From Coleofasciculus sp. D1-CHI-01 (lineage in GTDB: Bacteria > Cyanobacteriota > Cyanobacteriia > Cyanobacteriales > Coleofasciculaceae), in assembly GCA_040218875.1 (NCBI GenBank), contig JAVJQP010000092.1: DNA of 64,000 bases; one strand, 5' to 3'. Below are positions 4,134-53,054 of the stretch, piece after piece. Positions within the stretch are counted from its first letter, which is position 1. Every line of letters starts with the position of its first letter. The position numbers and the translations under genes are program-made. Below the pieces are notes generated by a model. It ran no database searches. It was given only the letters and a program-made list of their open reading frames with translations, and had not been told where the DNA came from.

Positions 4134-7100
4134 ATGTTTGTTGAATTTTTTATTAAACGACCTGTATTTACAACTGTTTGTTCCCTGATCATCTTACTCA
4201 TCGGAGCAATTAGTATTCCCACGCTTCCTGTTGCCCAATATCCTGATATTAGTCCCAAACAAGTTAGTGTCCAAGCCAACTATAACGGTGCCGATGCTCA
4301 AACCGTGGAAAATGCGGTGACGACTATCTTGGAACGGGCAATTAATGGTGTCGATGGGATGCGCTACATGACATCAAGTAGTAGTAATGATGGCACCAGT
4401 TCGATCAATATCACCTTTGCAGCAGACAAAGATCAAGATATTGCAGCAGTTGATGTCCAAAATCGCGTCTCTTTAGCTGAACCCCAATTGCCAGAATCTG
4501 TACTCCAAACCGGGGTCACGGTAAATAAGGAATCGGCTAACTTCCTAATGGCATTTGGTTTGTACTCAGAAAATGGTGAGTACGATAATCTCTTTTTAAG
4601 TAACTATGCAAACTTGTATTTGGTAGACGCCCTAAAACGAGTGAATGGGGTGGGAAATGTGCAAATTTTTGGCGAACGTACTTATGCGATGCGGCTTTGG
4701 CTTGATCCCCTGCGTCTTGCTAGTCGGAATCTGACGGCTCAAGATGTGGTGGATGCATTGCGGGAACAGAATATCCAGGTGGGTGCAGGGCGTATTGGTC
4801 AACCCCCCGCGCCAGAGGGACAGCAATATCAAATTGACTTACGGGCAATTAGCCGCTTGGAAACGGTTTCAGACTTTGAGGAATTGATTTTAGCCACCGA
4901 TGAAGATGGCACCCTGATTAAACTTAAAGACGTGGGACGTGTAGAATTGGGGGCGCAAAATTATGGCACGTTCCTGCGATTTCGGGCAAATGAAGCAGTC
5001 GGGTTGGGGATTAATACCGTTCCTGGGAGTAACGCCCTAGACGTAGGGAAAGCGGTGAAAGCAGAAATGGCAAAACTGGCGGCGGATTTCCCACCAGGGA
5101 TGACTTATGATATCGGGTTTGACACCACTGATTTTGTCAACCAGTCGCTGTCGGAAGTGGTGTTTACCCTGCTTAAAGCGGTGGGATTGGTGGTGTTGGT
5201 TATTTTTGTGTTTTTACAAGATTGGCGCACCACGATTATTCCGGCGATTACGATTCCCGTGTCTCTAATTGGTACGTTTGCCTTTGTCAAGATTTTTGAT
5301 TTTTCGATTAATAGTTTGACCTTATTTGGTCTAACCCTAGCCACGGGGATGGTGGTGGATGATGCAATTGTTGTAGTTGAAGATATCACCACCAAGATTC
5401 AACGGGGAGGGATTAAATCTCGACAAGCGGCGATTATTTCCATGCGGGAATTGGTGGGGGCAATTATCGCCACCTCATTGGTGTTAATGGCGGTATTTAT
5501 TCCAGTGGCTTTCTTTCCGGGGACAACGGGGGCGTTATATCGACAATTTGCGCTAACTATAGCCTTTTCAATTGCCGTTTCCACGTTTATGGCGCTGACG
5601 CTGACGCCAACCCTGTCTGGCTTAATCTTACGGCAAAAGCCAGAGGCGACCGGGTTTTGGGGTCACTTTTTTGATGGATTTAATTGGTTCCTAGAGGGAA
5701 TGCAGCAGCGATATCGACGATTTCTGATTATCCTGACTCGCGTGAAAACTCTGGTGATTGTGGCGTTTATTGGTTTATTAGCACTAACGGTGTGGGTTTA
5801 CGAAATTGTGCCATCCGCGTTTCTCCCGGATGAAGACCAAGGTTATTTTTTGACGATTGTCCAAGGACCAGAGGGTTCATCACTCAACTACACTCATGAT
5901 GTGATTGAGCAGATTGAAGATATTATTTTACCCTTGGATGAAGTGCGAGCCACGTTTGCGGTGGGGGGTTTTGGTTTTAGTGGGAATACGGCGAATAGCG
6001 CGATCGTTTTTACCACGCTGAAGCCTTGGTCAGAACGAACTGATCCCTCTCAGTCTGCTGAAGCTGTGATTAATAAAGTCCAGGGTGCTTTGTTTGGGAT
6101 TAAAGAAGCCAGAGTGTTTCCGGTGAATCCTCCCTCAATTCGCGGCTTGGGGAGTTTCGGTGGGTTTCAATTTCAACTGCAAGACCGCCGAGGTAATTTT
6201 AGCTTGGATTCGCTCATTGCAAATATGGGAAAATTGCTCGGTGCTGGTAATCAGAATCCCCAGTTGCAGGGGGTATTTAGTACCTATGCAGCCAATACCC
6301 CTCAGTTACAGATTGAGGTGAATCGTAATCGGGCGAAGGCGTTGGAGGTGGATATTGATGATATCTTTGAGACGTTGCAGACCTATTTAGGGTCGCGTTA
6401 TGTGAATGACTTTACCCTAGAACGACGCACCTATCGGGTTTATGTCCAAGCTGACGCTCAATTCCGCTCAAATCCAGAGGATATTAATCAACTTTATGTG
6501 CGTTCAGCACGGGATGAGATGATTCCTCTGGGGAATTTGGTCACGGTGACGCAAACCACAGGGGCGCAAACCATTAATCACTATAACTTGTTCCGCTCGA
6601 TTGAAATTAATGGGTCAGCCGCGTCGGGAGTTAGTTCGGGAGACGCAATTCAAGCCATGGAACAAGTCGCCGCCGAGGTATTACCGCCGGGATTAGGCTA
6701 TGAATGGTCTGGGTTATCGCTGGAGGAAATCCAGTCTGGCGGTCAAGCGACGATTATTTTCGGCTTTGGCTTGGTGTTTGTCTTCTTAGTGTTGGCGGCT
6801 CAATATGAAAGTTATATTGACCCGATTATTATTCTCTTGGCGGTTCCTCTGGCGATTTTGGGAGCGCTAATGGCGCAATCGTTGCGAGGTTTACCCAATG
6901 ATGTCTATTGTCAGATTGGCTTGGTGATGTTGATTGGTTTAGCCAGTAAGAACTCGATTCTGATTGTAGAATTTGCCAACCAGCTACGCGACCAAGGAAT
7001 GACGCTGAGGAAAGCCGCGATTGAGGCGGCGCAGCAGCGTTTGCGACCGATTTTGATGACAGCGATTTCTACATTGTTCGGGATTTTTCCCCTGGTAATC

Positions 7101-7313
7101 GCGACAGGTGCGGGATCAGGAAGCCGTCAATCCCTGGGAACGGCGGTGTTCGGGGGAATGTTCATCGCCACGTTCCTGAGTCTGTTTGTGGTTCCTATCC
7201 TCTATATTGTGATCAAATCGGGGAGCGATCGCTTATTTAATTCCTCTGGCAAAAACCAGAAGACACCGGAGTCACAAGAGCTTGAGCCGAAACCTGAAGT
7301 AACAATGCGGTAA
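4134..7313 (+). CDS. efflux RND transporter permease (AcrB/AcrD/AcrF family)
   Basis: 1059 aa. It has the typical N-terminus FFIKRPVFTTVCSLIILLIGAISIPTLPVAQYPDISP, two large periplasmic loops and 12 TM-type hydrophobic blocks. It is paired with the adaptor upstream. Confidence 0.92.
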   Translation: MFVEFFIKRPVFTTVCSLIILLIGAISIPTLPVAQYPDISPKQVSVQANYNGADAQTVENAVTTILERAINGVDGMRYMTSSSSNDGTSSINITFAADKDQDIAAVDVQNRVSLAEPQLPESVLQTGVTVNKESANFLMAFGLYSENGEYDNLFLSNYANLYLVDALKRVNGVGNVQIFGERTYAMRLWLDPLRLASRNLTAQDVVDALREQNIQVGAGRIGQPPAPEGQQYQIDLRAISRLETVSDFEELILATDEDGTLIKLKDVGRVELGAQNYGTFLRFRANEAVGLGINTVPGSNALDVGKAVKAEMAKLAADFPPGMTYDIGFDTTDFVNQSLSEVVFTLLKAVGLVVLVIFVFLQDWRTTIIPAITIPVSLIGTFAFVKIFDFSINSLTLFGLTLATGMVVDDAIVVVEDITTKIQRGGIKSRQAAIISMRELVGAIIATSLVLMAVFIPVAFFPGTTGALYRQFALTIAFSIAVSTFMALTLTPTLSGLILRQKPEATGFWGHFFDGFNWFLEGMQQRYRRFLIILTRVKTLVIVAFIGLLALTVWVYEIVPSAFLPDEDQGYFLTIVQGPEGSSLNYTHDVIEQIEDIILPLDEVRATFAVGGFGFSGNTANSAIVFTTLKPWSERTDPSQSAEAVINKVQGALFGIKEARVFPVNPPSIRGLGSFGGFQFQLQDRRGNFSLDSLIANMGKLLGAGNQNPQLQGVFSTYAANTPQLQIEVNRNRAKALEVDIDDIFETLQTYLGSRYVNDFTLERRTYRVYVQADAQFRSNPEDINQLYVRSARDEMIPLGNLVTVTQTTGAQTINHYNLFRSIEINGSAASGVSSGDAIQAMEQVAAEVLPPGLGYEWSGLSLEEIQSGGQATIIFGFGLVFVFLVLAAQYESYIDPIIILLAVPLAILGALMAQSLRGLPNDVYCQIGLVMLIGLASKNSILIVEFANQLRDQGMTLRKAAIEAAQQRLRPILMTAISTLFGIFPLVIATGAGSGSRQSLGTAVFGGMFIATFLSLFVVPILYIVIKSGSDRLFNSSGKNQKTPESQELEPKPEVTMR

Positions 7314-7494
7314 TATTTGTTAAAGGAATGCCGCCAAATGTATCAAAAACGATGAACAAAAATTATCTAATGTTAATAAATCCATAATTTTGTTGCAAAA
7401 ATTGACTTTAGTTACCCAGTTTCCCTAATCTTTGGTAAATGTAAACGTAGAATACAGCAAATTACTACAGTTTTTTCAGTTTAGGTTAGGGAAA

Positions 7495-7701
7495 ATGAAT
7501 AGTAAGCGAATTATTTTCTCCAGCGTTATCACGGGTATTGCGGGTGTAATTTTAGGCATCGGGGTGGCTGAAATTAATCATGCCGATCAGCGACCCAATG
7601 CCATGTCTCAATATGCCACAATTGGCGGGGTGATGGGATTAGCCGTGGGTGCGGGTCAACAGGCGCTGCGAGAATTAGAGGAATTGTCAGAAGAGTCATA
7701 A
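7495..7701 (+). CDS. small membrane protein (68 aa), function unknown
   Basis: An ATG at 7495 inside the 7432 TTG-started ORF. Two Gly/Ala-rich hydrophobic segments (VITGIAGVILGIGVA, IGGVMGLAVGAG). Confidence 0.4.
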   Translation: MNSKRIIFSSVITGIAGVILGIGVAEINHADQRPNAMSQYATIGGVMGLAVGAGQQALRELEELSEES

Positions 7702-7736
7702 GTAGGTGGGGACAATTAAAGTTAACGGCTGAGATC

Positions 7737-7778
7737 GTCATTTGTCATTCGTCATTTGTCATTTGTCATTTGTTATAC
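7737..7778. repeat. STRR-like tandem heptamer array GTCATT[TC] x6
   Basis: gtcattt gtcattc gtcattt gtcattt gtcattt gttatac read directly. Confidence 0.9.
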
Positions 7779-8038
7779 TCGCTACCCTTGAGAAGCAAGC
7801 TACGCCCTTTGTAAGGGTTTGAGGCTTGTTTACATAACTCCATAAGGTTGAATTTATTTCCGCAAACCTGCTTAATAGACGCGCTATATAGCGATCCTCG
7901 TATAACCAAGTAAATTTTAGCTGACAATTTAAGACTTTGAACCCGTTTTAACGGGTTTTAGCTTTTAGCCAGAACTTTAGTTCTCGGCTATTTCTGTGTG
8001 ACTTAAGCAATTTATTTCAGGCATTGACTACATCTTGA

Positions 8039-9394
8039 TTATCGGAATGACAGAACTTTTTTACGGTCGTTTTGCATAATTAATTCAAGTAACCAAAAAC
8101 AAACAACCGTTAAACCTGTCAAAACTGTACCCGTGGCAAAACACCAACTATATCCAAAACTCGCCGCTATATAGCCGCTGACAAGAGAACCCACCATTGT
8201 TGCCACCCCAATAATCGAATTATAGACTCCCAGAGCCATTCCTTCCTCACCTTTAGTTGCCAGACTTGCTACTGAAAGGGTACTGGCAACATTAATCACA
8301 GCCCAGGTTACACCCGTAAATAAATGAGCAAATCCAATCATAACTAAACTCGCTGGTGTTGGCTTTAAAAATGCCAGAAGGGTAAAAACAATAAAAACTG
8401 CCACCCGCACGGCTGTTCCCAGCGTTTGCCATCTAAGGCTGTCATGGTTTTGCACGAACCGACCGATGGGAAAATAGAGAAATGCCTCAATCAATGCCTT
8501 GCCAAAAATAATTAAGAAAATCAAGGAATTTGTCGCTCCCAAAACCTCAGCCAGAAAAATCGGGAAGGGAAGATAGACAATTTGAACCGCTAGAAAAAAT
8601 AGAGCCGAACACAGGTAATAAAGATAAAGGTGACTATAGAGGTTTTGATGTATCTGATTTAACCACTCTGGACGCAGAATAAAGTAAATCATCCGGGATG
8701 GATAAAACAGCACTCGCCGTTCAATAACACCGACAGAAAGTCGTCCGAGTAACGATGGGCTAAATAGGCGATTGGAACGAACCTGCTGCGGTTCCTGTAC
8801 CCAGATTAAACAGAGAATTAAGCTGAGAAATGTTGCCCCAGATGCAAAAACAAATAAACTTCGCATCGCTGAGACAGTACCCCACGAATCCGAGACAAGT
8901 TCTTGCCAAATCCCGCCGCCAATTAAAGCGATAACAAAACTCCAACCTCCAATCAGATAAAACCGACCAAAGGATTGAGACCATTGTTTTTCGGGAATAG
9001 TGTCTAATACGAGAGCAGTTGATACAGGAATAATGGCTGCCATCACAAATCCTGCCACTATACTGAATTGCTGCACTTGGATAAGATTGTCTGCCACACC
9101 AATCCGCCACATACACAAAGCAAATCCAACATATCCCAGAATTAGAAACGGGCGACGGTATCCTAATCGGTCAGAGAGATTTCCCCACAGGGTAAAAGCA
9201 ACCACACCAGCCAGGGAGACTAAGGAATTGGTTTTACCTACATCGGTGATACTCCCACCAACGACTTGCACGATAAACAGGGGAAGCAGGTTAATGAAAA
9301 AGCATTCTCCTATTTTGTACGGAACTAAATGGAAAAACCAAAGTGGCGTTGAAGATAACAAACTGATTTTAACCATAAGGTTTAGCCTGCTCAT
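8039..9394 (-). CDS. MFS transporter
   Basis: 451 aa, hydrophobic throughout (about 12 TM blocks). MFS motif-A-like GNLSDRLGYRRP between TM2 and TM3. Confidence 0.75.
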   Translation of the reverse strand: MSRLNLMVKISLLSSTPLWFFHLVPYKIGECFFINLLPLFIVQVVGGSITDVGKTNSLVSLAGVVAFTLWGNLSDRLGYRRPFLILGYVGFALCMWRIGVADNLIQVQQFSIVAGFVMAAIIPVSTALVLDTIPEKQWSQSFGRFYLIGGWSFVIALIGGGIWQELVSDSWGTVSAMRSLFVFASGATFLSLILCLIWVQEPQQVRSNRLFSPSLLGRLSVGVIERRVLFYPSRMIYFILRPEWLNQIHQNLYSHLYLYYLCSALFFLAVQIVYLPFPIFLAEVLGATNSLIFLIIFGKALIEAFLYFPIGRFVQNHDSLRWQTLGTAVRVAVFIVFTLLAFLKPTPASLVMIGFAHLFTGVTWAVINVASTLSVASLATKGEEGMALGVYNSIIGVATMVGSLVSGYIAASFGYSWCFATGTVLTGLTVVCFWLLELIMQNDRKKVLSFR

Positions 9395-9703
9395 CCCGGT
9401 TTAGATAAATGTGAAAGGCACTACCGTTTTCAGCGAGTATCGCTATTCAAAAGTAGAGACGTAGTAGGTTACGTCTTTTGAAAATTTAAAGAAGTCAAAA
9501 GGAATTTTATGTGGCTCATTTACGGTGAGAACAAGCCACATAAGACGGCTTTAAGTTTGCTATTGGCTTGGTGGCGAATTCCTGACTCTTCGTTGCTCAG
9601 AGCAAGTTTTCTGAAGCCAACAATTTGTAGTGAAGCTGCCAAGCTAATGCAAGATCTGTCCTGAGCAATATAGCCCGTGAATGCTAGATGTGAACGTTTC
9701 TGT

Positions 9704-9769
9704 TATAGCAATCGCCATAGCGGTTAGGACGCATCATTTATGTAGAGACGCGCTATGGCGCGTCTCTAC
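9704..9769. repeat. 66-bp dispersed repeat element ending in a GTAGAGACG...CGTCTCTAC palindrome (copy 1)
   Basis: tatagcaatcgccatagcggttaggacgcatcatttatgtagagacgcgctatggcgcgtctctac. A near-identical copy lies in inverse orientation at 39008-39072. Confidence 0.85.
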
Positions 9770-9898
9770 CCTAACGGATATGAGGTCTCCTTTAAAATCA
9801 AATGATTAGTATACATTTCTATATCCCTAAGTATACATCTTTTAAGCATCAATGGCTTGTTCCTTTTCCCTGTTCCCTCCCCTGACAAAGTGAGTGCG

Positions 9899-14477: not shown

Positions 14478-14490
14478 CGATTTGCCCCTC

Positions 14491-14607
14491 GGCTCCCCCG
14501 GCTCCCCCGGCTTCCCCGGCTCCCTCGGCTCCCCCGGCTCCCCCGGCTCCCTCGGCTCCCCCGGCTCCCCCAGCTCCCCCGGCTCCCTCGGCTCCCCCAG
14601 CTCCCCT
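14491..14607. repeat. tandem nonamer array GGCTCCCCC/GGCTCCCTC, 13 units
   Basis: Counted unit by unit from 14491. It fills the spacer between the convergent glsA and asnB genes, and the last unit overlaps the asnB stop codon. Confidence 0.95.
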
Positions 14608-22000: not shown

Positions 22001-22660
22001 ATGATTAATGTAATCGTCAAACCCAATACCATCGAGTTGCCAGCCGGAGCAGTGGTGAGAGTTCCTGGAACCTGGCAGGATTATCAAGTATTGCTGGAAC
22101 ATTTAGGCGAAGCTGCTTCGCAGCCGCTACGCTAACGCACTTCCCCTCGTGTCAAGTACCGCCATGGAGAACTACTACTAATGGTTCCTTTGCCTGAACA
22201 GGGTAAGCAACTGGACATTATCGTGGAAATGGTCAAGGTGTTGCTACGCCATCAGGGACTCAGGTTCGACTCTTACCACGAAACCACCATGGATTTACCC
22301 AATCATAGTGGTGTTATCCCGGATCATTTTTTCTATATTGGTGAGTTACCTGTGGTGGGAAAACGTCGGATTGATTGGAGTAGTGATCCGCCACCGGATT
22401 TGGCAATTGAGTGCGATGTTACCTCATTCACCAGTGTTAATGATTATTTGCCTTATCGAGTTAGGGAACTTTGGATTATTCGCCAACAAAAGATTAAAAT
22501 CTATCAGTTCCAGGATGGGCGGTATAGTTTGGTTGAACAGAGTCAGTTTTTCGGTGGATTTGACCTGAATGCTATCTTGACTGAGTGCATCAAAGACGCT
22601 TATGAACTTGGATCTGGCGCGATTGATAAATTGAGCGATCGCTATCCTCGCCAACGCTGA
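22001..22660 (+). pseudogene. Uma2-family (DUF820, PD-(D/E)xK) endonuclease interrupted by one in-frame TAA
   Basis: The ATG at 22001 and the ORF at 22181 share one reading frame, and the only stop between them is the TAA at 22133-22135. It sits in a ~30-nt segment containing a gctgc-ttc-gcagc mini-hairpin. The upstream part reads WQDYQVLLEHLGE. The downstream part reads KYRHGELLLMVPLPEQG ... PPDLAIECDVTS, typical of Uma2. Confidence 0.55.
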
Positions 22661-23492: not shown

Positions 23493-24731
23493 TCACTGAG
23501 GCAACGATCCTCGCAGCGCGTTGACTAAGCGATCAAACTCACGCTCAGCACGGCGAGGATGGACAAGATCTAATGTAGTCAGCATACTCAGCCGCGTGGG
23601 TAACTGATTTTGCTCGATTGGCGAGATTTTAACAGGTAGTAGGCGGTATGTACCTTCCTGAATACCCATTGTTTGCGCCAGGATGTTCTCAAACTCTGCC
23701 ATGTTATCTGTCAGATAGGCTTCCGAGAGTACGATAATAGTACGTTTGGACTGAGTAATGCCGCGCTCTATATTAACTACACGGGCTACGCCAGGGGTTT
23801 CAACATCGCCAGAAACAGCGAGGCGCAAATCGACTTTTTCTAATCGCGGTAGTAGTGTGTCCCACACCCAGGTAGTATCAGGCTCTTGATCTACATAACT
23901 GATGTAGGCATCATATCGAAAATTCTCTTCCACTATGGGGACAATACCTTTTTGACCACCTAAATAAAGAGCAATTGGGATATTCTCTTCTAGTTCTGCC
24001 TTGAAAATGGGGTGTTGGTTGGCGTTGTCAGCAGTAACTTTGGGTTGAAGATACTCAAACAGATCAAAAATCCGGATAAGACCGTCATTGCTTGGGATAC
24101 CGCCTTGTAAACCTGCTAGTAAGTGCTGGGTAAAAAGACTGTTAGCTGCACCAGGTAACACATAGGAAAATTCTGTGTCACGGGAAGATGCTAGAATTAC
24201 TCGTCCCTGTCCTTGCTGCAATACATCATAGTAGCTTTCTGGCAAGCCAGCTTTAATGACTAGACCAAATTTTTTGGGCTGACCAATACCACCTGAGTGA
24301 CAGCAATCAAAGATCACTACAATCTTTCTGGCGGGAATAGCCCTTAAAGCTTCAGTAAGCTGAATGCCAGAAATTGCTGTTTGAGCTATTGATGCCTCTG
24401 ATGTTGGGTCTGTCTCAACAGGTAACAGGTACTCACCAGTATGGGAACCACACTCAATTCGTCCACCGTGGCTAGAAATGTACAAGAATACTGTGGAGTC
24501 CTGATTACTAGTTTGAGTAAGGTGAGCCAGTGCTTGGCTAATAGCTGCTTTAGTAGCCTGCTCATCTAGCAGTAATTGTACGTTGTCTGGAGAGTACCCG
24601 CAGTGTAGGGGGTCAATAAGCAAGTTGTAGATATCCCGCGCATCCTTTAAGACAGTTGATGGGAGTTGTGTAAGGTTTTGGTAGTTGGCAATACCGACCA
24701 CTAGTGCGTATGCATTTTCCATTCCCGACAT
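23493..24731 (-). CDS. caspase-like (peptidase C14) - TIR domain fusion protein
   Basis: 412 aa. The caspase/metacaspase dyad contexts FLYISSHGG (His) and VIFDCCHSGG (Cys) are present. The C-terminal TIR-like module reads YDAYISY ... RTIIVLSEAYLTDNMAEFEN ... YRLLPVKI. An aggag SD lies 8 nt before the ATG. Confidence 0.75.
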   Translation of the reverse strand: MSGMENAYALVVGIANYQNLTQLPSTVLKDARDIYNLLIDPLHCGYSPDNVQLLLDEQATKAAISQALAHLTQTSNQDSTVFLYISSHGGRIECGSHTGEYLLPVETDPTSEASIAQTAISGIQLTEALRAIPARKIVVIFDCCHSGGIGQPKKFGLVIKAGLPESYYDVLQQGQGRVILASSRDTEFSYVLPGAANSLFTQHLLAGLQGGIPSNDGLIRIFDLFEYLQPKVTADNANQHPIFKAELEENIPIALYLGGQKGIVPIVEENFRYDAYISYVDQEPDTTWVWDTLLPRLEKVDLRLAVSGDVETPGVARVVNIERGITQSKRTIIVLSEAYLTDNMAEFENILAQTMGIQEGTYRLLPVKISPIEQNQLPTRLSMLTTLDLVHPRRAEREFDRLVNALRGSLPQ

Positions 24732-24859
24732 GAAGGGTCTCCTATTTAGCTAGACATGACCGATGGGACTGACAATAATAGATTTATAGTTAATTCATCC
24801 GCTCAATACCTAAATTGAGCTGAGGATTAGATACAGATACACCATTGCCATTGAACAGC
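24732..24859. promoter_or_regulatory. divergent promoter region shared by the two TIR genes
   Basis: A 128-bp AT-rich spacer between divergent starts. No specific boxes were assigned. Confidence 0.35.
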
Positions 24860-26206
24860 ATGATCGGTCAGAATGATTACCAGTATGATCTGTTCATTTC
24901 CTACACTACTACTGACCGCACTTGGGTTGAAAAACACCTATTACCTAAGCTGGGCTTGCCATCTAAGCGAGTTATTACTACTCAAGACTTCCGTCCTGGG
25001 GCAACGAAGGTCAATGAGTTCGAGCGTGCTGTCACCAAAAGTCACTACACTGTGTTGGTTTTCACCCCCAATTACAAAAAGGACAAGTGGTTTAAGTTAA
25101 GCGAGAATTTGGTCTCGTACTTGAGCGTAGCCGAGCAACACGATCGCCTGATTCCACTACTTTTAAAACCCTGTGATCTACCTTTACGTATCGATTACCG
25201 CGTCCACCTTGACTGTACTGACTCGAGTAATTGGGAGAGCGAACTTAGTCGCCTCCGTGCTTTGCTAGCTGAACAAGACCCGAATTTTGGAACTCAAACT
25301 CAAAGCTCGCAAACCGCGCATCTGTCGCCTATCCCCACCCTCTCAACCTTAAAGTTTGAAGTAGTAACAGTAGATGCCATGGGGAAAGTGGCTAACCGTT
25401 GCTCTAAAAAGGCACAGTACTTCATAGAAAGTTTAGGCGGTGTAGTTGAGCTAGAAATGGTTTCCATCCCAGGTGGTAAATTTACGATGGGATCACCTAA
25501 AGCAGAGGAAGCATCCCAGGAAGATGAACGTCCTCAACATCTAGTCACTGTCAAACCTTTCTTTATGGGTAAGTATCCTATTACTCAGGCGCAGTGGAGA
25601 GCGATCGCGTTCCTTGCGAAAATCAAACGCGAACTCAACCCTGACCCATCCTGTTTTAAGGGGGATAACTTACCTGTTGAACGAGTGTCCTGGTATCATG
25701 CACTAGAGTTTTGTCAGCGACTGTCGAGAGAAACGGGAAGAGAATACCGATTACCAAGTGAAGCTGAATGGGAATATGCCTGCCGCGCCAGAACATCAAC
25801 CCCATTCCATTTTGGTAAAACAGTTACAACTGATCTAGCCAACTATTGTGGACAAAACCGAGAAATTGAGGGAATTTTGGGCAAAGGAACTTATGGTAAT
25901 GAACCTTGTGGAGTTTATCACCAACGAACTACCGAGGTTGCTTGTTTTCCAGCTAACAGCTTCGGACTCTGTGACATGCATGGTAATGTCTGGGAGTGGT
26001 GTGCTGACTATGACCACCAGAACTATCAAAGCGCACCATTGGATGGTAATGCGTGGATAACTGATGGCAATTCAGAATATAGAAAATTGCGGGGTGGTTC
26101 CTGGGATTACTCTCCTCATTTCTGTCGTTGTGCATCTCGCTTTTCTGAAAATCCGAATATCCTCAACAAGGAATTTGGTTTTCGAGTTATTTTTTCTTCT
26201 GGGTAA
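24860..26206 (+). CDS. TIR domain - formylglycine-generating-enzyme (FGE/SUMF1-type) domain fusion protein
   Basis: The ATG at 24860 is preferred over the TTG at 24845. The N-terminal TIR-like module reads YDLFISYTTTD ... YTVLVFTPNYKKDKWFKLSEN ... RLIPLLLKPCDLP. The C-terminal FGE-sulfatase-type motifs are MVSIPGGKFTMGS, VERVSWYHALEFC, YRLPSEAEWEYACRA, HGNVWEWC, LRGGSW and FGFRV. Confidence 0.75.
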   Translation: MIGQNDYQYDLFISYTTTDRTWVEKHLLPKLGLPSKRVITTQDFRPGATKVNEFERAVTKSHYTVLVFTPNYKKDKWFKLSENLVSYLSVAEQHDRLIPLLLKPCDLPLRIDYRVHLDCTDSSNWESELSRLRALLAEQDPNFGTQTQSSQTAHLSPIPTLSTLKFEVVTVDAMGKVANRCSKKAQYFIESLGGVVELEMVSIPGGKFTMGSPKAEEASQEDERPQHLVTVKPFFMGKYPITQAQWRAIAFLAKIKRELNPDPSCFKGDNLPVERVSWYHALEFCQRLSRETGREYRLPSEAEWEYACRARTSTPFHFGKTVTTDLANYCGQNREIEGILGKGTYGNEPCGVYHQRTTEVACFPANSFGLCDMHGNVWEWCADYDHQNYQSAPLDGNAWITDGNSEYRKLRGGSWDYSPHFCRCASRFSENPNILNKEFGFRVIFSSG

Positions 26207-26216
26207 ATTTTTCTGA

Positions 26217-29200
26217 TTATTGAGTTCTGAGACTATAAATTCTTTCTTTTACATCTGCGATAGAGGATAAGTCTGAAATTTTTATGCTCGTCTCTCGGCG
26301 AATTTGAACCTTGGGATTTATTAGTGACCTCCTAATACACTGGCTTCTGTAAGGATGAGAAAGCCAATTCCAACTTCCGAAAACAGCAAATTTTGTGTCG
26401 CAAATCAAGATCTTTTCATTGGTTCCTTTACTTTCTATATGTATTGCTTCCCCTAATCGAATTAAATCTGAACCTGGATAATGATCAAATAATTCTTTCA
26501 GGTTTTTCTCGGCGTAAACATCATTATTATCATGTTCATTTTCCTCGCTAGTTTTGTGACCATAAACTAGTGTCACCTTCACTCCTCTTTCCAAAGCTGA
26601 AACAACATCATTAACAAAATATTTCGGTTCTTCTCCTCTAATCCAAGGCGTAACAATCACCAGTTCCTGTTCAGCTTGCTCAATTGCTTCTTTCAAAATA
26701 TTTAAATGATCACAATTATAAATCAGCACAGATCCCGGCTGTTGCTTAGGAATTTCAACCTCAGATTTATACTCTAAAATATTTCCCTGGTCTCGAATAT
26801 GTTCAACGAGTTGACGAGTATAATTTCCAGCTTTCTCTAGTCTGTAAAGATTACCCACTAGAATAAACAGTTCTTTAGCTCTCGATACGGCAACATTCAG
26901 AAGGTTGGGACGCCGATTAATCCAAGCAACGTTATCTTGCGGTCGGCACACCTTTGTTGAGAGGATAATTACCTTTTTCTCAGACCCTTGAAAAGCATGA
27001 ATCGTGCCAATAGATTTTTTATCTAAATCAGGCAAATTTCGACGCAAACCGTCCCTTAACGCATCAGCTTGAGCGCGAAACGCTGAAATCACACCAATAT
27101 CTTTTAGTGAGTAGCCTTGATTATATAAATGCTGGATTAAGTCACCTATTGCAGTAACTTCTTCCTGATTAACATTACCTTTAATATTTCCCTCAACATG
27201 ATAAGCAATCAAATTTGATTCTAGCAGTGAAGTAACGGGTGCTGTTTTAACTTCTAATCCATAGTTAGCAATTTTATTGCAATATTGAATAATGCTAGGT
27301 TGACAGCGGTAATGCTCAATCAAACAAATTCCTTTGCCCTTATCGTTGTTTTCTCCTCTTGCTCCTGCGGCGCGATGATAAGAAGTTGCACTATATTCTT
27401 CTGGACTATAACAATGGTAATCAATTTTAGTTAATCCTTTGTCAAGAAACGCTGTGTGAAAGTAGTTATCACGTCTCTGCTCACTCAAAGAGATTACAGG
27501 CTCTATTTGGAAAGGATCTCCAACAATAATAGCTTTGCGCGATCGCACTAACAGAGGAAAGGTCTGATGCAGTGGAATCATTCCGGCTTCATCTATAATT
27601 GTGCGGTCAACACATTCCTCTACCCACGGCAACATATTTCGTATTGAAAGTAATGTACTAGTAATCACTGGAAAAATTAAGCTCGAATATTTAATATTAT
27701 CATCTAAATTTTCTTCCATTTTATATTTATCTTTCCAATTTCCAGAAAGCATATTTACATACAGTTCTAAAGTAGATTTCACACGTTCTTTATAAAGGAG
27801 AGCTTGCTGATCAAGAAACAGCAGCGATAGTTTAAATAACTCTTGGTGCTTGTTATGAAAATTTTCATGAAATGAAGCGTAAAAATCTTCCAGTTCAGTT
27901 TCTAACCTCCGTTCCAAATCACTCAGTTCTGAGCCGATCTCATATCTTTCTCGCTCTCGACTGATTAGAATTTCAGAAATTTCTTGTAATTTTTCTTGTA
28001 CGCTTTTTAGCTCATCTGCTTTATCTAGTCGTTCTCTAACCAACTGCGCCTGTCTTACCAAATCACTGCGATTTTTGGGGGCTTCCACAGGAAAGGAGGT
28101 ACTAAATGTGCTTTGGATTGCGGAATGACAAGCTGACCTCGTATTAGCCAAAATATTTTGTTCTGTTTTGCCAATCAGCCACCGCCATAAACGAATCCAC
28201 CAAGGCAAATTTCCTGCGGGTAACTGTAACTCAGCCGTATCAAAGTGCAACTTAATTTGTCGATAAGCTTCTGTGGGAAATTGTTCATATTCTGCCAAGT
28301 ATTCAACTCGTATCTGAAAATTAATTTTAGCCTTTTTATCTCCATCTAATTGTTCTATAATTGCTTGGTATTTTCGTTTGAAACGAGGCATATTTTGTTC
28401 GGCGAATGATCTTTGGCAACGTAATTCTAAATGAGCCAATTCTTGCTGCCTCAGTTCATCTTTAATAGATTTTATTTGCTGTTTTATCTTAGTACTATGA
28501 TTTGCATTGAAACTAGTTTTTTGCAAGTAATCGATTGCAGCGTTTAACTTTTCGATCGCTCCTCCCGCAGATTTAATGTTAGGTGTGCTTCCTCCTTTAA
28601 GATAGAAAATACGGTTGTTCAAAGATTCATTCAGTTTCTCAATTACGTTTTCAACTGCTTTATTATTAGTGCTGCTAACAACGGTCAAATTATTAATATC
28701 CTCATCATTCTCAACCAGGCTAATTGCACGTTGTACTACCTGTTGAGCAATCAGATGAAGGATTAGAGTAGTTTTCCCAGAGCCGGGAGGACCCTGGACT
28801 GCCGTTACAGGTTCTGTTTGGGCATGTTTTATTGCTGTTAATTGCGAGTTAGTTGGTGCATGGGTTGGGAAAGCTCCCATATAGGTAATCTCATCTTGAT
28901 GATCTTGTGGTGTACCGAATAGATATTCGCGAGCTGGATGTCCTTGTTTCAACCAATATTTTGATCGTGACTTAATATCTTTTAAATCTTTCCGGAGCTT
29001 GCCAGTAAATCTGCCTCCGGTAAACTCAAACAAATATGGCTGTCCCTTAATTTGTTTACCAGAACGACGAGGTATAACAACCCGCTCCATCCACTCCTGA
29101 TAACTATCAAATGTTAGCTCAAACGTTGTTTCGAGAAAGCGTCGCAGTCCATCTTGGGTGATTAATTGCTCTTGCTGTTCATCATCCAGTTTTAGGAATG

Positions 29201-29585
29201 TGGCTAAGTTATATCCTGCTTCCGTGAGTGTCAGGTTATCTAGATTCCATCCATCTTCTCGGTACTCTCCTTTAAGTATGGATGTAATATCCAAGCTAAA
29301 CAGAGGACAAAAATAAGATGTTTTGTTTTCTACATCCAAAATTTGGGGAAACGACAAGACCCAAACAGCTTCCTGTTGATCTTTTGGTCTCTTGGCAACC
29401 TTTTGTTGCAGTTCTGAAAAGATATCTGTCTCAATTAATACATGATCACCTACTAGCTTTATACCCCGCTGTTTTACGGTATCCTGATTGGCTACTTTGA
29501 TTCTGGCGCTACTGTAATCGTCCAAAGCGATGTAGTCAAACCAGGCGTTGAGAATCGCGTCTACCTTGCTTACTTCGTTCAACAT
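26217..29585 (-). CDS. SF1 (Upf1/DNA2-like, COG1112-type) helicase with coiled-coil insertion and C-terminal PLD-like domain; Mokosh type II-like
   Basis: 1122 aa. Walker A GPPGSGKTT, motif II-like IIDEAGM, and late helicase motifs (GTIHAFQGSEKKVIILS, LNVAVSRAK). The C-terminal single HKD-type motif reads N-E-K-ILIC-D-TKFAVF-G-S-W-N (nt 26367-26420). The gene is AT-richer than the flanking genes. Confidence 0.7.
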   Translation of the reverse strand: MLNEVSKVDAILNAWFDYIALDDYSSARIKVANQDTVKQRGIKLVGDHVLIETDIFSELQQKVAKRPKDQQEAVWVLSFPQILDVENKTSYFCPLFSLDITSILKGEYREDGWNLDNLTLTEAGYNLATFLKLDDEQQEQLITQDGLRRFLETTFELTFDSYQEWMERVVIPRRSGKQIKGQPYLFEFTGGRFTGKLRKDLKDIKSRSKYWLKQGHPAREYLFGTPQDHQDEITYMGAFPTHAPTNSQLTAIKHAQTEPVTAVQGPPGSGKTTLILHLIAQQVVQRAISLVENDEDINNLTVVSSTNNKAVENVIEKLNESLNNRIFYLKGGSTPNIKSAGGAIEKLNAAIDYLQKTSFNANHSTKIKQQIKSIKDELRQQELAHLELRCQRSFAEQNMPRFKRKYQAIIEQLDGDKKAKINFQIRVEYLAEYEQFPTEAYRQIKLHFDTAELQLPAGNLPWWIRLWRWLIGKTEQNILANTRSACHSAIQSTFSTSFPVEAPKNRSDLVRQAQLVRERLDKADELKSVQEKLQEISEILISRERERYEIGSELSDLERRLETELEDFYASFHENFHNKHQELFKLSLLFLDQQALLYKERVKSTLELYVNMLSGNWKDKYKMEENLDDNIKYSSLIFPVITSTLLSIRNMLPWVEECVDRTIIDEAGMIPLHQTFPLLVRSRKAIIVGDPFQIEPVISLSEQRRDNYFHTAFLDKGLTKIDYHCYSPEEYSATSYHRAAGARGENNDKGKGICLIEHYRCQPSIIQYCNKIANYGLEVKTAPVTSLLESNLIAYHVEGNIKGNVNQEEVTAIGDLIQHLYNQGYSLKDIGVISAFRAQADALRDGLRRNLPDLDKKSIGTIHAFQGSEKKVIILSTKVCRPQDNVAWINRRPNLLNVAVSRAKELFILVGNLYRLEKAGNYTRQLVEHIRDQGNILEYKSEVEIPKQQPGSVLIYNCDHLNILKEAIEQAEQELVIVTPWIRGEEPKYFVNDVVSALERGVKVTLVYGHKTSEENEHDNNDVYAEKNLKELFDHYPGSDLIRLGEAIHIESKGTNEKILICDTKFAVFGSWNWLSHPYRSQCIRRSLINPKVQIRRETSIKISDLSSIADVKERIYSLRTQ

Positions 29586-45581: not shown

Positions 45582-46164
45582 TGTTCAATTCCTTTTCAGT
45601 AGTTAAATCAACAAGACGACTTAGAGAGATACGAGCTACTCCATCATCATCATAGGTAATGTAGTGATGTACAATGAGACGCACTGGGTTAATCAGTTGA
45701 TGGCGATCGCCTAATTCTATCTCACTAAATGGTACGGCGTGTCTGAATCCTTGGGAACCATGCCTAAGTAAGGTAAAGTTATCTCGCTTTTCCCCATGAG
45801 TTCCCCAGAGAATCTGTCTTTCTGGGATTTTGTCTACCTCTGAATTATCTTGGACTAGACGCGATCGCCAAGTTTCACCCGCCCGCCAAAGTAATACTTC
45901 CCCATGTTTACCAAAGATACGGCATTGTTGAAGGGTGAGGACTCGTAGAGATGGAAAATCTACGTTAAACTCAGGCTGGTGAAATATCTGTTCCGCTGTG
46001 GTTAATTTACCTGAATCAAAGCGACCCCAAATTACACCGTCTTCAGCATGAGCTAGCAGATAATTTAGGTTCCAGGTTATCGCTTGTTTTTCTAACCAAT
46101 ATCTAAGCGTTTCATCATCTACAATCCCATCAATAGGAAGCTTTTGGCATAACACTTTGTTCAT
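45541..46164 (-). CDS. csx19: Csx19-like (TIGR03984-like) type III-D accessory protein
   Basis: 207 aa. The call rests on position between two RAMP genes and the LLAHAEDGVIWGR segment, recalled as typical of this cyanobacterial family. Its start overlaps the upstream stop by 4 nt, and its 3' end overlaps the next start by 41 nt. Confidence 0.45.
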   Translation of the reverse strand: MNKVLCQKLPIDGIVDDETLRYWLEKQAITWNLNYLLAHAEDGVIWGRFDSGKLTTAEQIFHQPEFNVDFPSLRVLTLQQCRIFGKHGEVLLWRAGETWRSRLVQDNSEVDKIPERQILWGTHGEKRDNFTLLRHGSQGFRHAVPFSEIELGDRHQLINPVRLIVHHYITYDDDGVARISLSRLVDLTTEKELNNASQTSQKSTGRS

Positions 46165-49198: not shown

Positions 49199-49206
49199 CC
49201 AACTTT

Positions 49207-49869: not shown

Positions 49870-49873
49870 CTGA

Positions 49874-52848: not shown

Positions 52849-53054
52849 AGTGGCTAACCTGGGTATGACGTTGCTGCTGGGGTGAGATAGGCGATCGCTC
52901 TTCCTTAATCTAATCCAACTTATCTCCATGGGATTGAGAGGGGGACGAGTCGAGGGCGCGATCGCCTCTGTACCAAAAATTATGCCATCCATTCGGAAAC
53001 ACCCCCTTCCGATACTTGATAGGCTATAAGCCACACTCAACAAAACAAAAACTG
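52849..53054. promoter_or_regulatory. divergent promoter region between the Cas10 operon and the WYL gene
   Basis: A 206-bp spacer between divergent starts, and a natural operator location for a WYL-type regulator. No boxes were assigned. Confidence 0.35.

What the first reader, a model, noticed from the sequence alone, without database searches (positions are those of the whole stretch)
23493..26206. Divergent caspase-TIR and TIR-FGE(SUMF1) gene pair: candidate uncharacterised two-protein TIR immune/cell-death module
Seen in the sequence: two genes fire divergently from a 128-bp spacer. One product joins a caspase/metacaspase fold with intact dyad contexts (YISSHGG, FDCCHSGG) to a C-terminal TIR-like domain (YDAYISY ... 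IIVLSEAYL ... AEFEN ... RLLPV). The other carries a TIR-like domain of the same flavour (YDLFISY ... VLVFTPNY ... KWFKLSEN ... RLIPLLL) fused to an FGE/SUMF1-type domain (GGKFTMGS, RVSWYHALEFC, SEAEWEYACRA, HGNVWEWC, RGGSW, GFRV). Established knowledge: bacterial TIR domains are NAD-consuming or signal-generating immune modules (Thoeris, TIR-STING CBASS, short pAgo/SPARTA). Caspase-like proteases execute cell death in bacterial gasdermin and CRISPR-linked systems. FGE-type domains recur as presumed ligand-binding modules in cyanobacterial conflict proteins. Inference: the FGE domain senses, the two TIR domains hetero-assemble, and the caspase domain is the output. I know of no experimentally characterised system with this pairing.
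Basis: partly seen in the sequence, partly recalled or inferred. Interest (0 to 1): 0.8.

Follow-up and report, generated by a model that had tools for sequence, protein, structure and literature searches.

The report
TIR-bridged caspase, lectin-fold sensor, helicase module
The two genes are real and look like two parts of a three-gene cyanobacterial cell-death or immunity module, in which matching Toll-like TIR domains probably tie a caspase protease to a lectin-fold protein that always sits beside a Mokosh-like helicase.

Summary
Gene A (23493-24731, minus strand) is a Peptidase_C14 caspase with an intact His88/Cys144 dyad plus a C-terminal TIR domain. Gene B (24860-26206, plus strand) is an N-terminal TIR domain plus a non-catalytic FGE/C-type-lectin-fold domain. 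A 128-bp spacer separates them.

Three comparative results change the picture.

1. The caspase-TIR family is large (438 hits in species genomes). In 31 of 35 loci with full flanks it sits near a second gene that starts with a TIR domain, usually TIR-nSTAND1-WD40.
2. The catalytic Glu of the TIR domain is kept in caspase-TIR (71/75). It is absent from all 50 nSTAND1-type partner TIRs and from gene B (Ser81). Both window TIRs resemble animal TLR and MyD88 TIRs most closely. This points to an adaptor role rather than Thoeris-style signalling.
3. The FGE domain of gene B belongs to a clade that always lies next to a Mokosh-II-like helicase-PLD gene (here 26217-29585). This holds in 17 of 17 other loci with usable flank. 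In that clade the N-terminus of the FGE protein is EAD10, EAD1, a fused caspase or, here, TIR. The PLD catalytic His is Asn in all 18 clade members.

The window therefore holds a TIR-for-EAD swap of a three-gene module. It is a new variant of the computationally predicted adaptor-coupled conflict systems. No function has been tested.

The parts
23493..24731 (-). Gene A: caspase-TIR protein, 412 aa
   Evidence: ORF. Pfam Peptidase_C14 plus TIR_2. More than 1445 full-length homologues at about 70-98% identity. 438 matches in species genomes.
23988..24710 (-). Peptidase_C14 (orthocaspase) domain, residues 8-248. Catalytic His88 is at 24468-24470 and Cys144 at 24300-24302.
   Evidence: Pfam E 3e-20. 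The dyad aligns with the Yca1 catalytic residues. Both residues are invariant in alignment A1.
23523..23906 (-). C-terminal TIR domain of gene A, residues 276-403. Glu348 (23688-23690) sits at the WxxxE catalytic position.
   Evidence: Pfam TIR_2 E 8e-11. The best solved relatives are TLR6, TLR1, TLR10 and MyD88. Glu is present in 71/75 family members.
24732..24859 (.). 128-bp divergent spacer. It holds a promoter-like site on the plus strand at 24751-24779.
   Evidence: Sequence. Consensus scan gave TAGACA-17-AATAAT, 10/12 matches. The number of such sites in the region does not exceed the shuffles.
24860..26206 (+). Gene B: TIR-FGE protein, 448 aa from the ATG
   Evidence: ORF. Pfam TIR_2 plus FGE-sulfatase. 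The same gene was called on L081.
24893..25255 (+). N-terminal TIR domain of gene B. Ser81 (25100-25102) occupies the catalytic-Glu position. A BB-loop-like FRPG motif is present.
   Evidence: Pfam. Alignment with TLR2. Column analysis. 60% identity to the TIR of a TIR-nSTAND1-FGE partner in L015.
25454..26191 (+). FGE-sulfatase / C-type-lectin-fold domain, predicted non-catalytic
   Evidence: Pfam E 6e-57. The best solved relatives are PvdO and the DGR variable protein TvpA. Human FGE Cys336 aligns with Tyr417, while Cys341 is kept. 64-74% identical to FGE domains of EAD10-, EAD1- and caspase-FGE proteins.
26217..29585 (-). Helicase-PLD protein, 1122 aa, Mokosh type II (MkoC)-like, lying tail-to-tail with gene B. 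Walker A is GPPGSGKT. The PLD motif reads T-N-E-K-ILICD...GSWNW, with Asn1056 (26418-26420) in place of the catalytic His.
   Evidence: PADLOC MkoC E 9e-105. Pfam AAA_11, AAA_12 and PLDc_2. Adjacent to an FGE gene in 17/17 related loci with usable flank and in 2 further distinct caspase-FGE loci. Asn in 18/18 clade members, against His in two outgroup proteins.
22181..22660 (+). Uma2-family putative endonuclease. This is context only and is probably not part of the module.
   Evidence: Pfam Uma2 E 7e-13. PADLOC PDC-S17. A Uma2 fragment also flanks the pair on L081.

Best explanation
Genes A and B, together with the helicase-PLD gene at 26217-29585, form one adaptor-coupled cell-death or immunity module.

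Proposed mechanism:
- The FGE/lectin-fold protein (gene B) works with the Mokosh-like helicase. The helicase's PLD domain has lost its catalytic His, so it probably no longer acts as the nuclease effector. These two proteins form the sensing side.
- On activation, B's N-terminal TIR domains are brought together. This TIR resembles TLR TIRs and lacks the catalytic Glu.
- The clustered TIRs nucleate homotypic TIR-TIR assembly with the TIR of the caspase-TIR protein (gene A).
- Induced proximity then switches on the caspase. It may also switch on NADase activity in A's own TIR, which keeps the Glu.
- The outcome is death or arrest of the infected cell.

The logic matches CARD-mediated caspase recruitment in the apoptosome, and the 'EAD principle' predicted for bacterial conflict systems, with TIR in the adaptor role.

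Shown here: the domain content, the state of the catalytic residues, and the two conserved gene associations. Inferred: the physical TIR-TIR contact, the direction of signalling, which protein senses what, and the defensive role.
For: 1. Caspase-TIR is a conserved constant component: 78% mean column identity in an alignment of homologues named from Cyanobacteria and Chloroflexota. A second gene with an N-terminal TIR lies within 10 kb in 31/35 loci with full flanks and in 65/80 loci overall. That gene is almost always on the same strand and often abuts the caspase-TIR gene.
2. The partners are sensor-like. Of 48 partners scanned, 48 have TIR_2, 39 have nSTAND1 and about 22 have WD40 propellers. 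Two carry a C-terminal FGE domain after nSTAND1.
3. Glu at the WxxxE position is found in 71/75 caspase-TIRs, in 0/50 nSTAND1-type partner TIRs, and in neither of the two window-lineage TIR-FGE proteins, which have Ser. A sensor TIR that cannot be a canonical NADase argues for scaffolding.
4. Both window TIRs hit TLR1/2/6/10 best among solved structures, and gene A's TIR also matches MyD88. The BB-loop Gly is conserved.
5. Slot equivalence: FGE domains 60-74% identical to gene B's carry EAD10, EAD1, EAD8+EAD10 or a fused Peptidase_C14 domain at the N-terminus.
6. In the EAD10-FGE loci, a nearby caspase of about 320 aa (34% identical to gene A's caspase domain) ends in a segment that matches EAD10 (hhalign probability 95%, E 3e-8).
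7. The FGE gene and the helicase-PLD gene are adjacent in 13/13 loci (tail-to-tail) and 4/4 loci (head-to-head) with usable flank. They are also adjacent at 2 further distinct caspase-FGE loci. The genes outside the pair differ from locus to locus.
8. The PLD His is replaced by Asn in 18/18 clade members, but is kept in two outgroup Mokosh-type proteins.
9. The surroundings look defensive: Uma2 lies beside the module, and a type III CRISPR-Cas cluster lies 14 kb away.
Against: - No experiment has been done, and no usable structure model was obtained. The AF2 models had pLDDT of about 50, and no multimer test was possible.
- The exact divergent caspase-TIR / TIR-FGE pair is seen only in three closely related assemblies. 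Its own conservation therefore says little.
- Cognate TIR pairs are no more alike than non-cognate pairs (32.4% against 31.7% identity), so there is no pair-specific signal.
- Gene B lacks the NTPase that drives oligomerisation in the usual partners. Another way of clustering must be assumed.
- A's TIR keeps the Glu, so an enzymatic role for TIR in the system is not excluded.
- The fused caspase in the caspase-FGE proteins is not detectably similar to gene A's caspase by BLAST.
- Tail-to-tail genes are separate transcripts.
Confidence: 0.55

Rival explanations
1. Thoeris-like nucleotide signalling. One TIR converts NAD+ into a signal molecule, or simply depletes NAD+, and this activates the caspase, as in type IV Thoeris.
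For: Type IV Thoeris pairs a TIR protein with a caspase-like protease that is activated by N7-cADPR. Gene A's TIR keeps the catalytic Glu in 71/75 family members. Partners of the BNR and TPR types also keep Glu (12/12).
Against: Gene B's TIR has Ser at the catalytic position, as do none-with-Glu among all 50 nSTAND1-type partners. In Thoeris the infection-sensing protein is the one that makes the signal. [quoted passage not shown] Both window TIRs resemble scaffold-type animal TIRs most closely. PADLOC gave no Thoeris match.
Confidence: 0.13
2. The two genes are neighbours by accident in a defence islet. Gene B works only with the helicase-PLD. Gene A is a separate effector whose true TIR-STAND partner lies elsewhere in the genome or has been lost.
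For: The link between FGE and helicase-PLD does not need a caspase-TIR: it holds in 17/17 loci with other N-termini. The divergent orientation is atypical for caspase-TIR partners. The pair is seen only in one narrow lineage. About 11% of caspase-TIR loci with full flanks have no nearby TIR gene.
Against: A TIR gene directly abutting a caspase-TIR gene is the family rule (31/35). Gene B's TIR falls in the partner-TIR clade: 60% identical to the L015 partner, and 55% identical to a TIR-nSTAND1 fragment. Sister FGE loci recruit a caspase through matching EAD10 segments or by fusion. A caspase tied to this FGE protein is therefore expected.
Confidence: 0.17
3. The module is not antiviral. It serves developmental or stress-induced cell death, kin recognition, or regulatory signalling in a filamentous cyanobacterium.
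For: FGE/CLec proteins with kinase, orthocaspase or TIR N-termini have been proposed as regulatory signalling proteins in cyanobacteria. A kin-recognition role has been raised for related systems. The flanking genes are housekeeping genes: FtsH, FNR and phosphoribulokinase.
Against: The helicase is a close HMM match to the Mokosh defence protein MkoC. The pair moves between unrelated genomic contexts, like a mobile defence cassette. The same domain logic has been shown experimentally to be antiviral in CARD- and protease-coupled systems.
Confidence: 0.1

Closest known systems
EAD-coupled NTPase/FGS conflict systems predicted by Kaur, Burroughs, Iyer and Aravind (eLife 2020, PMC7159879; eLife 2021, PMC8195603)
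   Same: The sensor protein has a C-terminal FGS (FGE) domain and a variable N-terminal adaptor or effector slot. The same adaptor domain is repeated on a neighbouring effector such as a caspase. Systems of this type are enriched in multicellular cyanobacteria, and nSTAND1 is the usual central NTPase.
   Different: Here the repeated adaptor is a TIR domain, which those papers treat as an enzymatic effector. It is not one of the EAD, Death-like or TRADD-N domains. Gene B has no NTPase. The obligate neighbour is a Mokosh-like helicase-PLD, which I did not find described there. No DGR element is in the window.
Bacterial CARD-containing gasdermin and NLR-like defence systems (Wein et al. 2023, PMC10312443; CARD-NLR-like system, PMC13236601)
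   Same: These are experimentally shown cases in which a homotypic adaptor domain is needed for protease-mediated activation of a cell-death effector.
   Different: The adaptor there is CARD-like (death fold), not TIR. The protease is trypsin-like and the effector is gasdermin. Neither an FGE domain nor a helicase-PLD is involved.
Type IV Thoeris (Rousset et al. 2025; bioRxiv 10.1101/2024.10.24.620036)
   Same: It is a TIR protein plus a caspase-like protease encoded side by side, and the caspase acts as the abortive-infection effector.
   Different: In Thoeris the TIR protein is short, stands alone and is catalytic (E79), and it signals through diffusible N7-cADPR. [quoted passage not shown] Here the caspase itself carries a TIR, and the partner TIR lacks the catalytic Glu and is fused to an FGE domain.
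Mokosh type II (MkoC)
   Same: It is a single polypeptide with an SF1 helicase and a C-terminal PLD-like domain. The PADLOC MkoC model matches at E 9e-105 over nearly its full length. Mokosh is described as an RNA helicase plus a PLD nuclease.
   Different: In this clade the HKD catalytic His is Asn (18/18). The gene is never alone: it always sits next to an X-FGE gene.
Animal Apaf-1/caspase-9 apoptosome and TLR/MyD88 signalling
   Same: The canonical partner, TIR-NTPase-WD40, paired with caspase-TIR mirrors CARD-NB-ARC-WD40 paired with CARD-caspase. The TIRs are most similar in sequence to TLR and MyD88 TIRs.
   Different: This is analogy only and no orthology is shown. The adaptor is TIR rather than CARD, and the window variant lacks the NTPase.

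Membership tests
Peptidase C14 (active orthocaspase/metacaspase) | Caspase fold with a catalytic His-Cys dyad | tested here: met
   Pfam E 3e-20. SSHGG and DCCHSG align with the catalytic His and Cys motifs of Yca1. Both residues are invariant in alignment A1.
NADase-type TIR domain | Catalytic Glu in the WxxxE position of helix alpha-C | tested here: met
   This row is for gene A. Glu348 is present, and Glu occupies this position in 71/75 family members. Activity itself was not tested, and the TLR1, TLR2 and TLR6 TIRs in the alignments have Glu at this position too.
NADase-type TIR domain | Catalytic Glu in the WxxxE position of helix alpha-C | tested here: not met
   This row is for gene B. 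It has W77-F-K-L-S81, with Ser at the Glu position and Glu82 one residue later. None of the 50 nSTAND1-type partner TIRs has Glu here.
Type IV Thoeris | Short stand-alone catalytic TIR protein (ThsB-like) in an operon with the caspase | tested here: not met
   Gene B is a 448-aa TIR-FGE fusion without the catalytic Glu, and it is transcribed divergently. See for the Thoeris definition.
Type IV Thoeris | Caspase-like effector (ThsE) activated by N7-cADPR through a C-terminal ligand-binding domain | not testable with these tools
   No ThsE sequence or model was available, because PADLOC v2.0 predates it. Gene A's C-terminal domain is a TIR, whereas the paper calls the ThsE C-terminus a domain of unknown function.
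EAD-coupled conflict systems (Kaur et al.) | The same adaptor domain sits on the N-terminus of the sensor and on a nearby effector | tested here: met
   TIR is on both proteins here, and in 31/35 caspase-TIR loci with full flanks. The EAD10 version occurs in sister loci.
EAD-coupled conflict systems (Kaur et al.) | The adaptor is one of the described non-enzymatic EAD, Death-like or TRADD-N domains | tested here: not met
   The adaptor candidate is TIR_2/TIR, and neither A nor B has an EAD Pfam match.
Formylglycine-generating enzyme (true FGE/SUMF1) | Catalytic cysteine pair (human Cys336 and Cys341) | tested here: not met
   Cys336 aligns with Tyr417 and only Cys341 is kept. The best solved relative is PvdO, and the DGR variable protein TvpA also matches. 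All NCBIfam equivalog scores are far below cut-off.
DGR-diversified variable protein | A template repeat and reverse transcriptase, and a hypervariable C-terminal region | tested here: not met
   The window has no second copy of the 3' region and no other FGE copy, and none of the 33 window ORFs scanned with Pfam matched a reverse transcriptase family. The VR-like segment is conserved across homologues. A template repeat elsewhere in the genome cannot be excluded.
Mokosh type II (MkoC) | SF1 helicase plus PLD-like domain in one protein | tested here: met
   PADLOC MkoC E 9e-105, covering model positions 248-1108 of 1136. Pfam AAA_11, AAA_12 and PLDc_2.
Mokosh type II (MkoC) | Intact HxK(x)4D catalytic motif in the PLD nuclease | tested here: not met
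   The motif reads TNEKILICD. Asn replaces His in 18/18 clade members, while His is present in Acinetobacter and Anabaena relatives.
Antiviral STAND / NLR-like (Avs, bNACHT, nSTAND1) sensors | Central STAND NTPase between the N-terminal effector or adaptor and the C-terminal sensor | tested here: not met
   Gene B has no NTPase domain. Canonical partners of caspase-TIR do have one: nSTAND1 in 39/48.

The most novel reading that the evidence does not exclude
Bacteria use catalytically dead, TLR-like TIR domains as pure homotypic adaptors that recruit a TIR-tagged caspase. That would be a prokaryotic counterpart, and possibly a forerunner, of animal TIR scaffold signalling and of the apoptosome. 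In this window the TIR adaptor wires a previously unrecognised sensor pair to the caspase. The pair is a nuclease-dead Mokosh-like helicase plus an FGE/lectin-fold protein.
Probability: 0.4. Interest if true: 0.85.

Novelty: new variant of a known kind. Interest (0 to 1): 0.68.

Why it matters
To my knowledge, the bacterial TIR domains characterised so far act as enzymes (NADases or signal synthases), while scaffold-type TIR signalling is regarded as a feature of animals.

This study identifies a family found in 438 species-representative genomes in which a caspase carries a TIR and its sensor partner carries a Glu-less TIR. That gives a direct, cheap experimental test of whether TIR-TIR scaffolding and proximity-induced caspase activation exist in bacteria.

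The work also reveals a strictly conserved pairing between a Mokosh-like helicase whose PLD has lost its catalytic His and an FGE/lectin-fold protein. This suggests how a known defence nuclease may have been rewired to a protease output.

Finally, the series of fused caspase-FGE, EAD10-bridged and TIR-bridged versions is a natural experiment in adaptor swapping.

Tried and rejected
- **Structure prediction.** AF2 models of A (pLDDT 50.7) and B (pLDDT 50.4) were too poor for fold searches or residue geometry.
- **DGR hypothesis for the FGE domain.** The window has no template repeat and no second FGE copy. The VR-like codons are a mix of NNT and NNC, and the segment is conserved among homologues. 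Rejected for this window.
- **Gene B as a deletion derivative of TIR-nSTAND1-FGE.** The TIR is 60% identical to the L015 partner, but the FGE domain is only 29% identical. It is 64-74% identical to the EAD-FGE and caspase-FGE clade instead. Domain shuffling fits better than deletion.
- **Pair-specific similarity of cognate TIRs.** None was found.
- **A constant third gene between TIR-nSTAND1 and caspase-TIR.** The intervening genes are heterogeneous: several have no Pfam match, and others are FecR, an alpha/beta hydrolase or a metallophosphoesterase.
- **Word-indexed homologue search with gene B's TIR alone.** It gave only 3 hits.
- **Exhaustive representative search with full-length gene B.** It was swamped by multi-FGE proteins. 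It showed one independent TIR-FGE architecture, P0352, which has a different TIR type.
- **Named defence systems.** PADLOC and NCBIfam gave nothing for A, B or the canonical partners beyond the generic 'caspase' model, a weak PDC-S66 match and a repeat-region match to HEAT-ARM_XIII in the WD40 partner.


Full report
**1.

Gene A is 23493..24731 on the minus strand (412 aa). Gene B ends at 26206 on the plus strand. It starts at TTG 24845 or, more likely, at ATG 24860 (448 aa). The ATG gives the quoted 128-bp spacer and is the start called on an independent metagenome contig.

The Pfam matches are far beyond chance:
- Gene A: Peptidase_C14 at residues 8-248 (E 3e-20) and TIR_2 at 276-403 (E 8e-11).
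- Gene B: TIR_2 at 17-137 (E 3e-15) and FGE-sulfatase at 204-449 (E 6e-57).

Gene A's SSHGG and DCCHSG motifs align with the catalytic His and Cys motifs of yeast metacaspase Yca1. His88, Cys144 and TIR Glu348 are invariant in 20 homologues.

PADLOC and NCBIfam assign neither protein to a named defence system. The only hits are the generic 'caspase' model, a weak PDC-S66 match, and a 'caspase, EACC1-associated type' match below its cut-off.

**2. Gene A belongs to a large, highly conserved family that travels with a second TIR gene**

More than 1445 full-length homologues were found, at about 70-98% identity. Their source names include Cyanobacteria and Chloroflexota. A scan of one genome per species found 438 relatives. 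These include Actinomycetota, Planctomycetota, Acidobacteriota and others.

I called ORFs in the 80 fetched loci and searched them with the window's domains. A second gene beginning with a TIR domain lies within 10 kb in:
- 65 of 80 loci overall;
- 42 of 47 loci with at least 4 kb on both sides;
- 31 of 35 loci with at least 9 kb on both sides.

This second gene is nearly always on the same strand. It often lies within 0-200 bp of the caspase-TIR gene, upstream or downstream.

A Pfam scan of 48 of these partners gave TIR_2 in 48, nSTAND1 in 39 and WD40 propellers in about 22. Individual cases include:
- TIR-nSTAND1-FGE in L015, and probably also in L010, where only a BLAST match to the FGE domain was obtained;
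- TIR-TPR and TIR-AAA_35;
- a four-gene cassette found in 9 loci: TIR-BNR/sortilin, then a roughly 1000-aa protein with no Pfam match, then a LysM protein, then caspase-TIR.

The canonical arrangement, TIR-NTPase-WD40 plus caspase-TIR, has the layout of Apaf-1 plus caspase-9, with TIR where CARD would be. The canonical partner also has no named PADLOC system.

**3. The TIR domains look like adaptors, not signal generators**

I aligned 76 partner TIRs, 75 caspase-TIR TIRs, and the TLR2 and TLR6 TIRs. The alignment is anchored by the conserved W and F of the WxxxE helix. The residues at the catalytic-Glu column are:
- caspase-TIR proteins: Glu in 71 of 75;
- nSTAND1-type partners: Glu in 0 of 50 (they have V, I, G, A, T, S or F);
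- BNR-type partners: Glu in 9 of 9;
- TPR-type partners: Glu in 3 of 3;
- gene B and its L001 orthologue: Ser, followed by Glu one residue later.

Gene B's TIR is closest to nSTAND1-type partner TIRs. It is 60% identical to the L015 partner and 44-54% identical to ten others. It is 55% identical to a TIR-nSTAND1 fragment.

Among solved structures, both window TIRs hit animal TLR1, TLR2, TLR6 and TLR10 best, and gene A's TIR also matches MyD88. In gene B the BB-loop 'F-x-P-G' matches TLR2's 'F-I-P-G'. The BB-loop Gly is invariant, or nearly so, in both families.

A sensor-side TIR that lacks the catalytic Glu is hard to reconcile with a Thoeris-type scheme. In Thoeris the infection-sensing TIR makes the signal, for example type IV Thoeris TIR E79.

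**4. Gene B's FGE domain is a binding module from a family with a swappable N-terminal slot**

Human FGE Cys336 aligns with Tyr417 of gene B, and only Cys341 is kept. The best solved relative is PvdO, and the DGR variable protein TvpA also matches. The domain is therefore not an FGE enzyme.

Full-length relatives of gene B are limited to its own lineage (P0121, 94% identity). Otherwise the best hits match only the FGE part, at 60-74% identity. Their N-termini are EAD10, EAD1, EAD8+EAD10, a Peptidase_C14 domain, or regions with no Pfam match.

This fits the 'strict syntax' of FGS proteins noted by Kaur et al., and it fits their EAD principle.

The window shows no sign of DGR diversification:
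- there is no template-repeat copy and no second FGE copy;
- none of the 33 window ORFs scanned with Pfam matched a reverse transcriptase family;
- the VR-like segment is conserved among homologues.

**5. The twist: the FGE gene is locked to the neighbouring helicase-PLD gene**

The 1122-aa product of 26217..29585 lies tail-to-tail with gene B, 10 bp away. It matches the PADLOC MkoC model (Mokosh type II) at E 9e-105.

I looked up neighbours of EAD10-FGE in Nostoc and EAD1-FGE in Mastigocoleus. Both show the same tail-to-tail helicase-PLD, 64-66% identical to the window's. A metagenome scan with these helicases then gave 59 loci. ORF analysis of those loci showed three clades:
- **At least 54% identity to the window protein:** an X-FGE gene lies immediately downstream, convergent, in 13 of 13 distinct loci with usable flank.
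- **50-52% identity:** the FGE gene lies immediately upstream, divergent, in 4 of 4 loci.
- **36-42% identity, about 960 aa, no PLD:** no FGE gene was found in any of these loci. This form is common on small cyanobacterial plasmids.

The genes outside the pair differ between loci, so this is a functional linkage rather than inherited synteny.

Caspase-FGE fusion proteins from Microcoleus and Scytonema also sit tail-to-tail with the helicase. They are preceded by an alpha/beta-hydrolase-like gene and, in Scytonema, a NERD gene.

In six of the EAD10-FGE loci, a caspase of about 320 aa lies nearby. It is 34% identical to gene A's caspase domain. Its C-terminal tail matches the second half of EAD10 (hhalign probability 95%, E 3e-8).

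This gives a series of three arrangements:
- caspase fused to FGE;
- caspase-EAD10 plus EAD10-FGE;
- caspase-TIR plus TIR-FGE, as in the window.

Each is next to the helicase-PLD. Gene B thus sits at the junction of two independent conserved associations. Its TIR links it to caspase-TIR, and its FGE domain links it to the helicase.

**6. The PLD domain of this helicase clade lacks its catalytic His**

All 18 clade members read T-N-[E/Q]-[K/R]-x-L-x-x-D...GSWNW. An Acinetobacter single-gene helicase-PLD reads THEKILLID, and an Anabaena MkoB-like protein reads THCKILISD. The Walker A motif, GPPGSGKT, is intact.

It is established knowledge that the His of the HxK(x)4D motif is the catalytic nucleophile in the PLD superfamily. 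I therefore infer that this clade is nuclease-dead. It would act as sensor or scaffold, with the caspase taking over as effector. This is inference only.

**7. Most likely mechanism (confidence about 0.55)**

The helicase and the FGE protein together detect an invader. The FGE protein's Glu-less TIR clusters and nucleates the TIR of the caspase-TIR protein. Proximity then activates the caspase, and possibly NADase activity in gene A's Glu-bearing TIR.

In systems characterised experimentally:
- proteases fused to sensors cleave latent effectors such as alpha/beta-hydrolases, EACC1 and Pepco;

What the caspase cleaves in the window system is unknown.

**8. Rivals**

- Thoeris-like signalling: confidence 0.13.
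- Accidental neighbours in a defence islet: 0.17.
- A non-defence role: 0.10.

These are set out in the rival explanations section, each with the results that would refute it.

**9. Comparison with what is known, and novelty**

The individual architectures have been catalogued:
- metacaspase-FGE, and metacaspases with a TIR domain, in 2012;
- TIR-like N-termini among CLec variable proteins or their paralogues;
- [EAD/TIR/caspase]-nSTAND1-FGS proteins.

The adaptor-coupling logic has also been predicted. For CARD it has been shown experimentally.

I did not find the following in the searchable literature:
- TIR used as the repeated adaptor between a caspase and its sensor;
- the asymmetry in catalytic Glu between the two TIRs;
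- the obligate pairing of FGE with a helicase-PLD, or the His-to-Asn change in that PLD.

The library is open-access only, so absence from it is not proof. My rating is 'new variant of a known kind'.

**10. Limits**

- Everything here is comparative, and there are no functional data.
- Both structure models failed.
- The exact A/B pair is known from one narrow lineage only.
- ORF calling in the loci was mechanical.
- The 80-locus sample is the best-scoring subset of 438 matches.

Noticed in passing
window 43404-53127 (minus strand): A cluster that looks like a type III CRISPR-Cas effector. It has four RAMP-family proteins, a short Cas10/Cmr2-palm protein (550 aa) and a protein with a Card1-like endonuclease domain. 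Tandem Repeats Finder found no array, but it is not suited to CRISPR arrays.
   Followed up: partly
window 26418-26420 (Asn1056 of the helicase-PLD); loci L082-L128: The PLD HKD motif has Asn in place of the catalytic His in all 18 members of the FGE-linked helicase-PLD clade. Two outgroup Mokosh-type proteins keep His.
   Followed up: yes
L011, L012, L019, L030, L038, L049, L056, L060, L068: A recurrent four-gene cassette that ends or begins with caspase-TIR. The order is TIR-BNR/sortilin protein (about 556 aa, catalytic Glu present), a 1000-1180-aa protein with no Pfam match, a LysM protein (about 310 aa), then caspase-TIR.
   Followed up: partly
L026, L041, L066 (Actinomycetota): An alpha/beta-hydrolase gene sits between TIR-nSTAND1 and caspase-TIR, and in L026 and L041 a LytR_cpsA_psr gene lies upstream. 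This recalls the alpha/beta-hydrolase zymogens cleaved by caspase-like proteases in PMC12642450. A similar hydrolase-like gene precedes caspase-FGE in L146 and L147.
   Followed up: partly
L045 (Nodularia) 6962-9853; plasmid hits H1-H15: A PLD-less relative of the helicase (about 960 aa, 36-42% identity) lies directly upstream of caspase-TIR in Nodularia. The same form is common on 30-60-kb cyanobacterial plasmids. FGE genes never accompany it.
   Followed up: partly
L085, L087, L090, L093 (also L147, L148): A NERD-like protein of about 220 aa often lies just upstream of the helicase-PLD or of the caspase. The copy I read (L085) has hydrophobic stretches near its N-terminus that look like membrane helices. 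It is absent from the window.
   Followed up: no
window 26108-26113 (gene B residues 417-418): Within the otherwise conserved VR-like segment of the FGE domain, the window and P0121 have Tyr-Ser where L001 has Asp-Phe. Most other differences between strains are charge changes in the TIR domain.
   Followed up: no
window 22181-22660: A Uma2-family putative endonuclease (PADLOC candidate PDC-S17) lies next to the module. Uma2 genes also occur next to related loci L081, L082 and L145.
   Followed up: no
window 14486-14606: A tandem array of a 9-bp unit, CCCCCGGCT, with 13.4 copies, lies between the glutaminase gene and the asparagine-synthase gene. Several heptamer arrays occur elsewhere (7737, 11997, 59990).
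   Followed up: no
L094 3812-6298: In one head-to-head FGE/helicase locus, the gene next to the FGE gene encodes an 828-aa protein with a weak TIR match. This may be another TIR link to the module.
   Followed up: no
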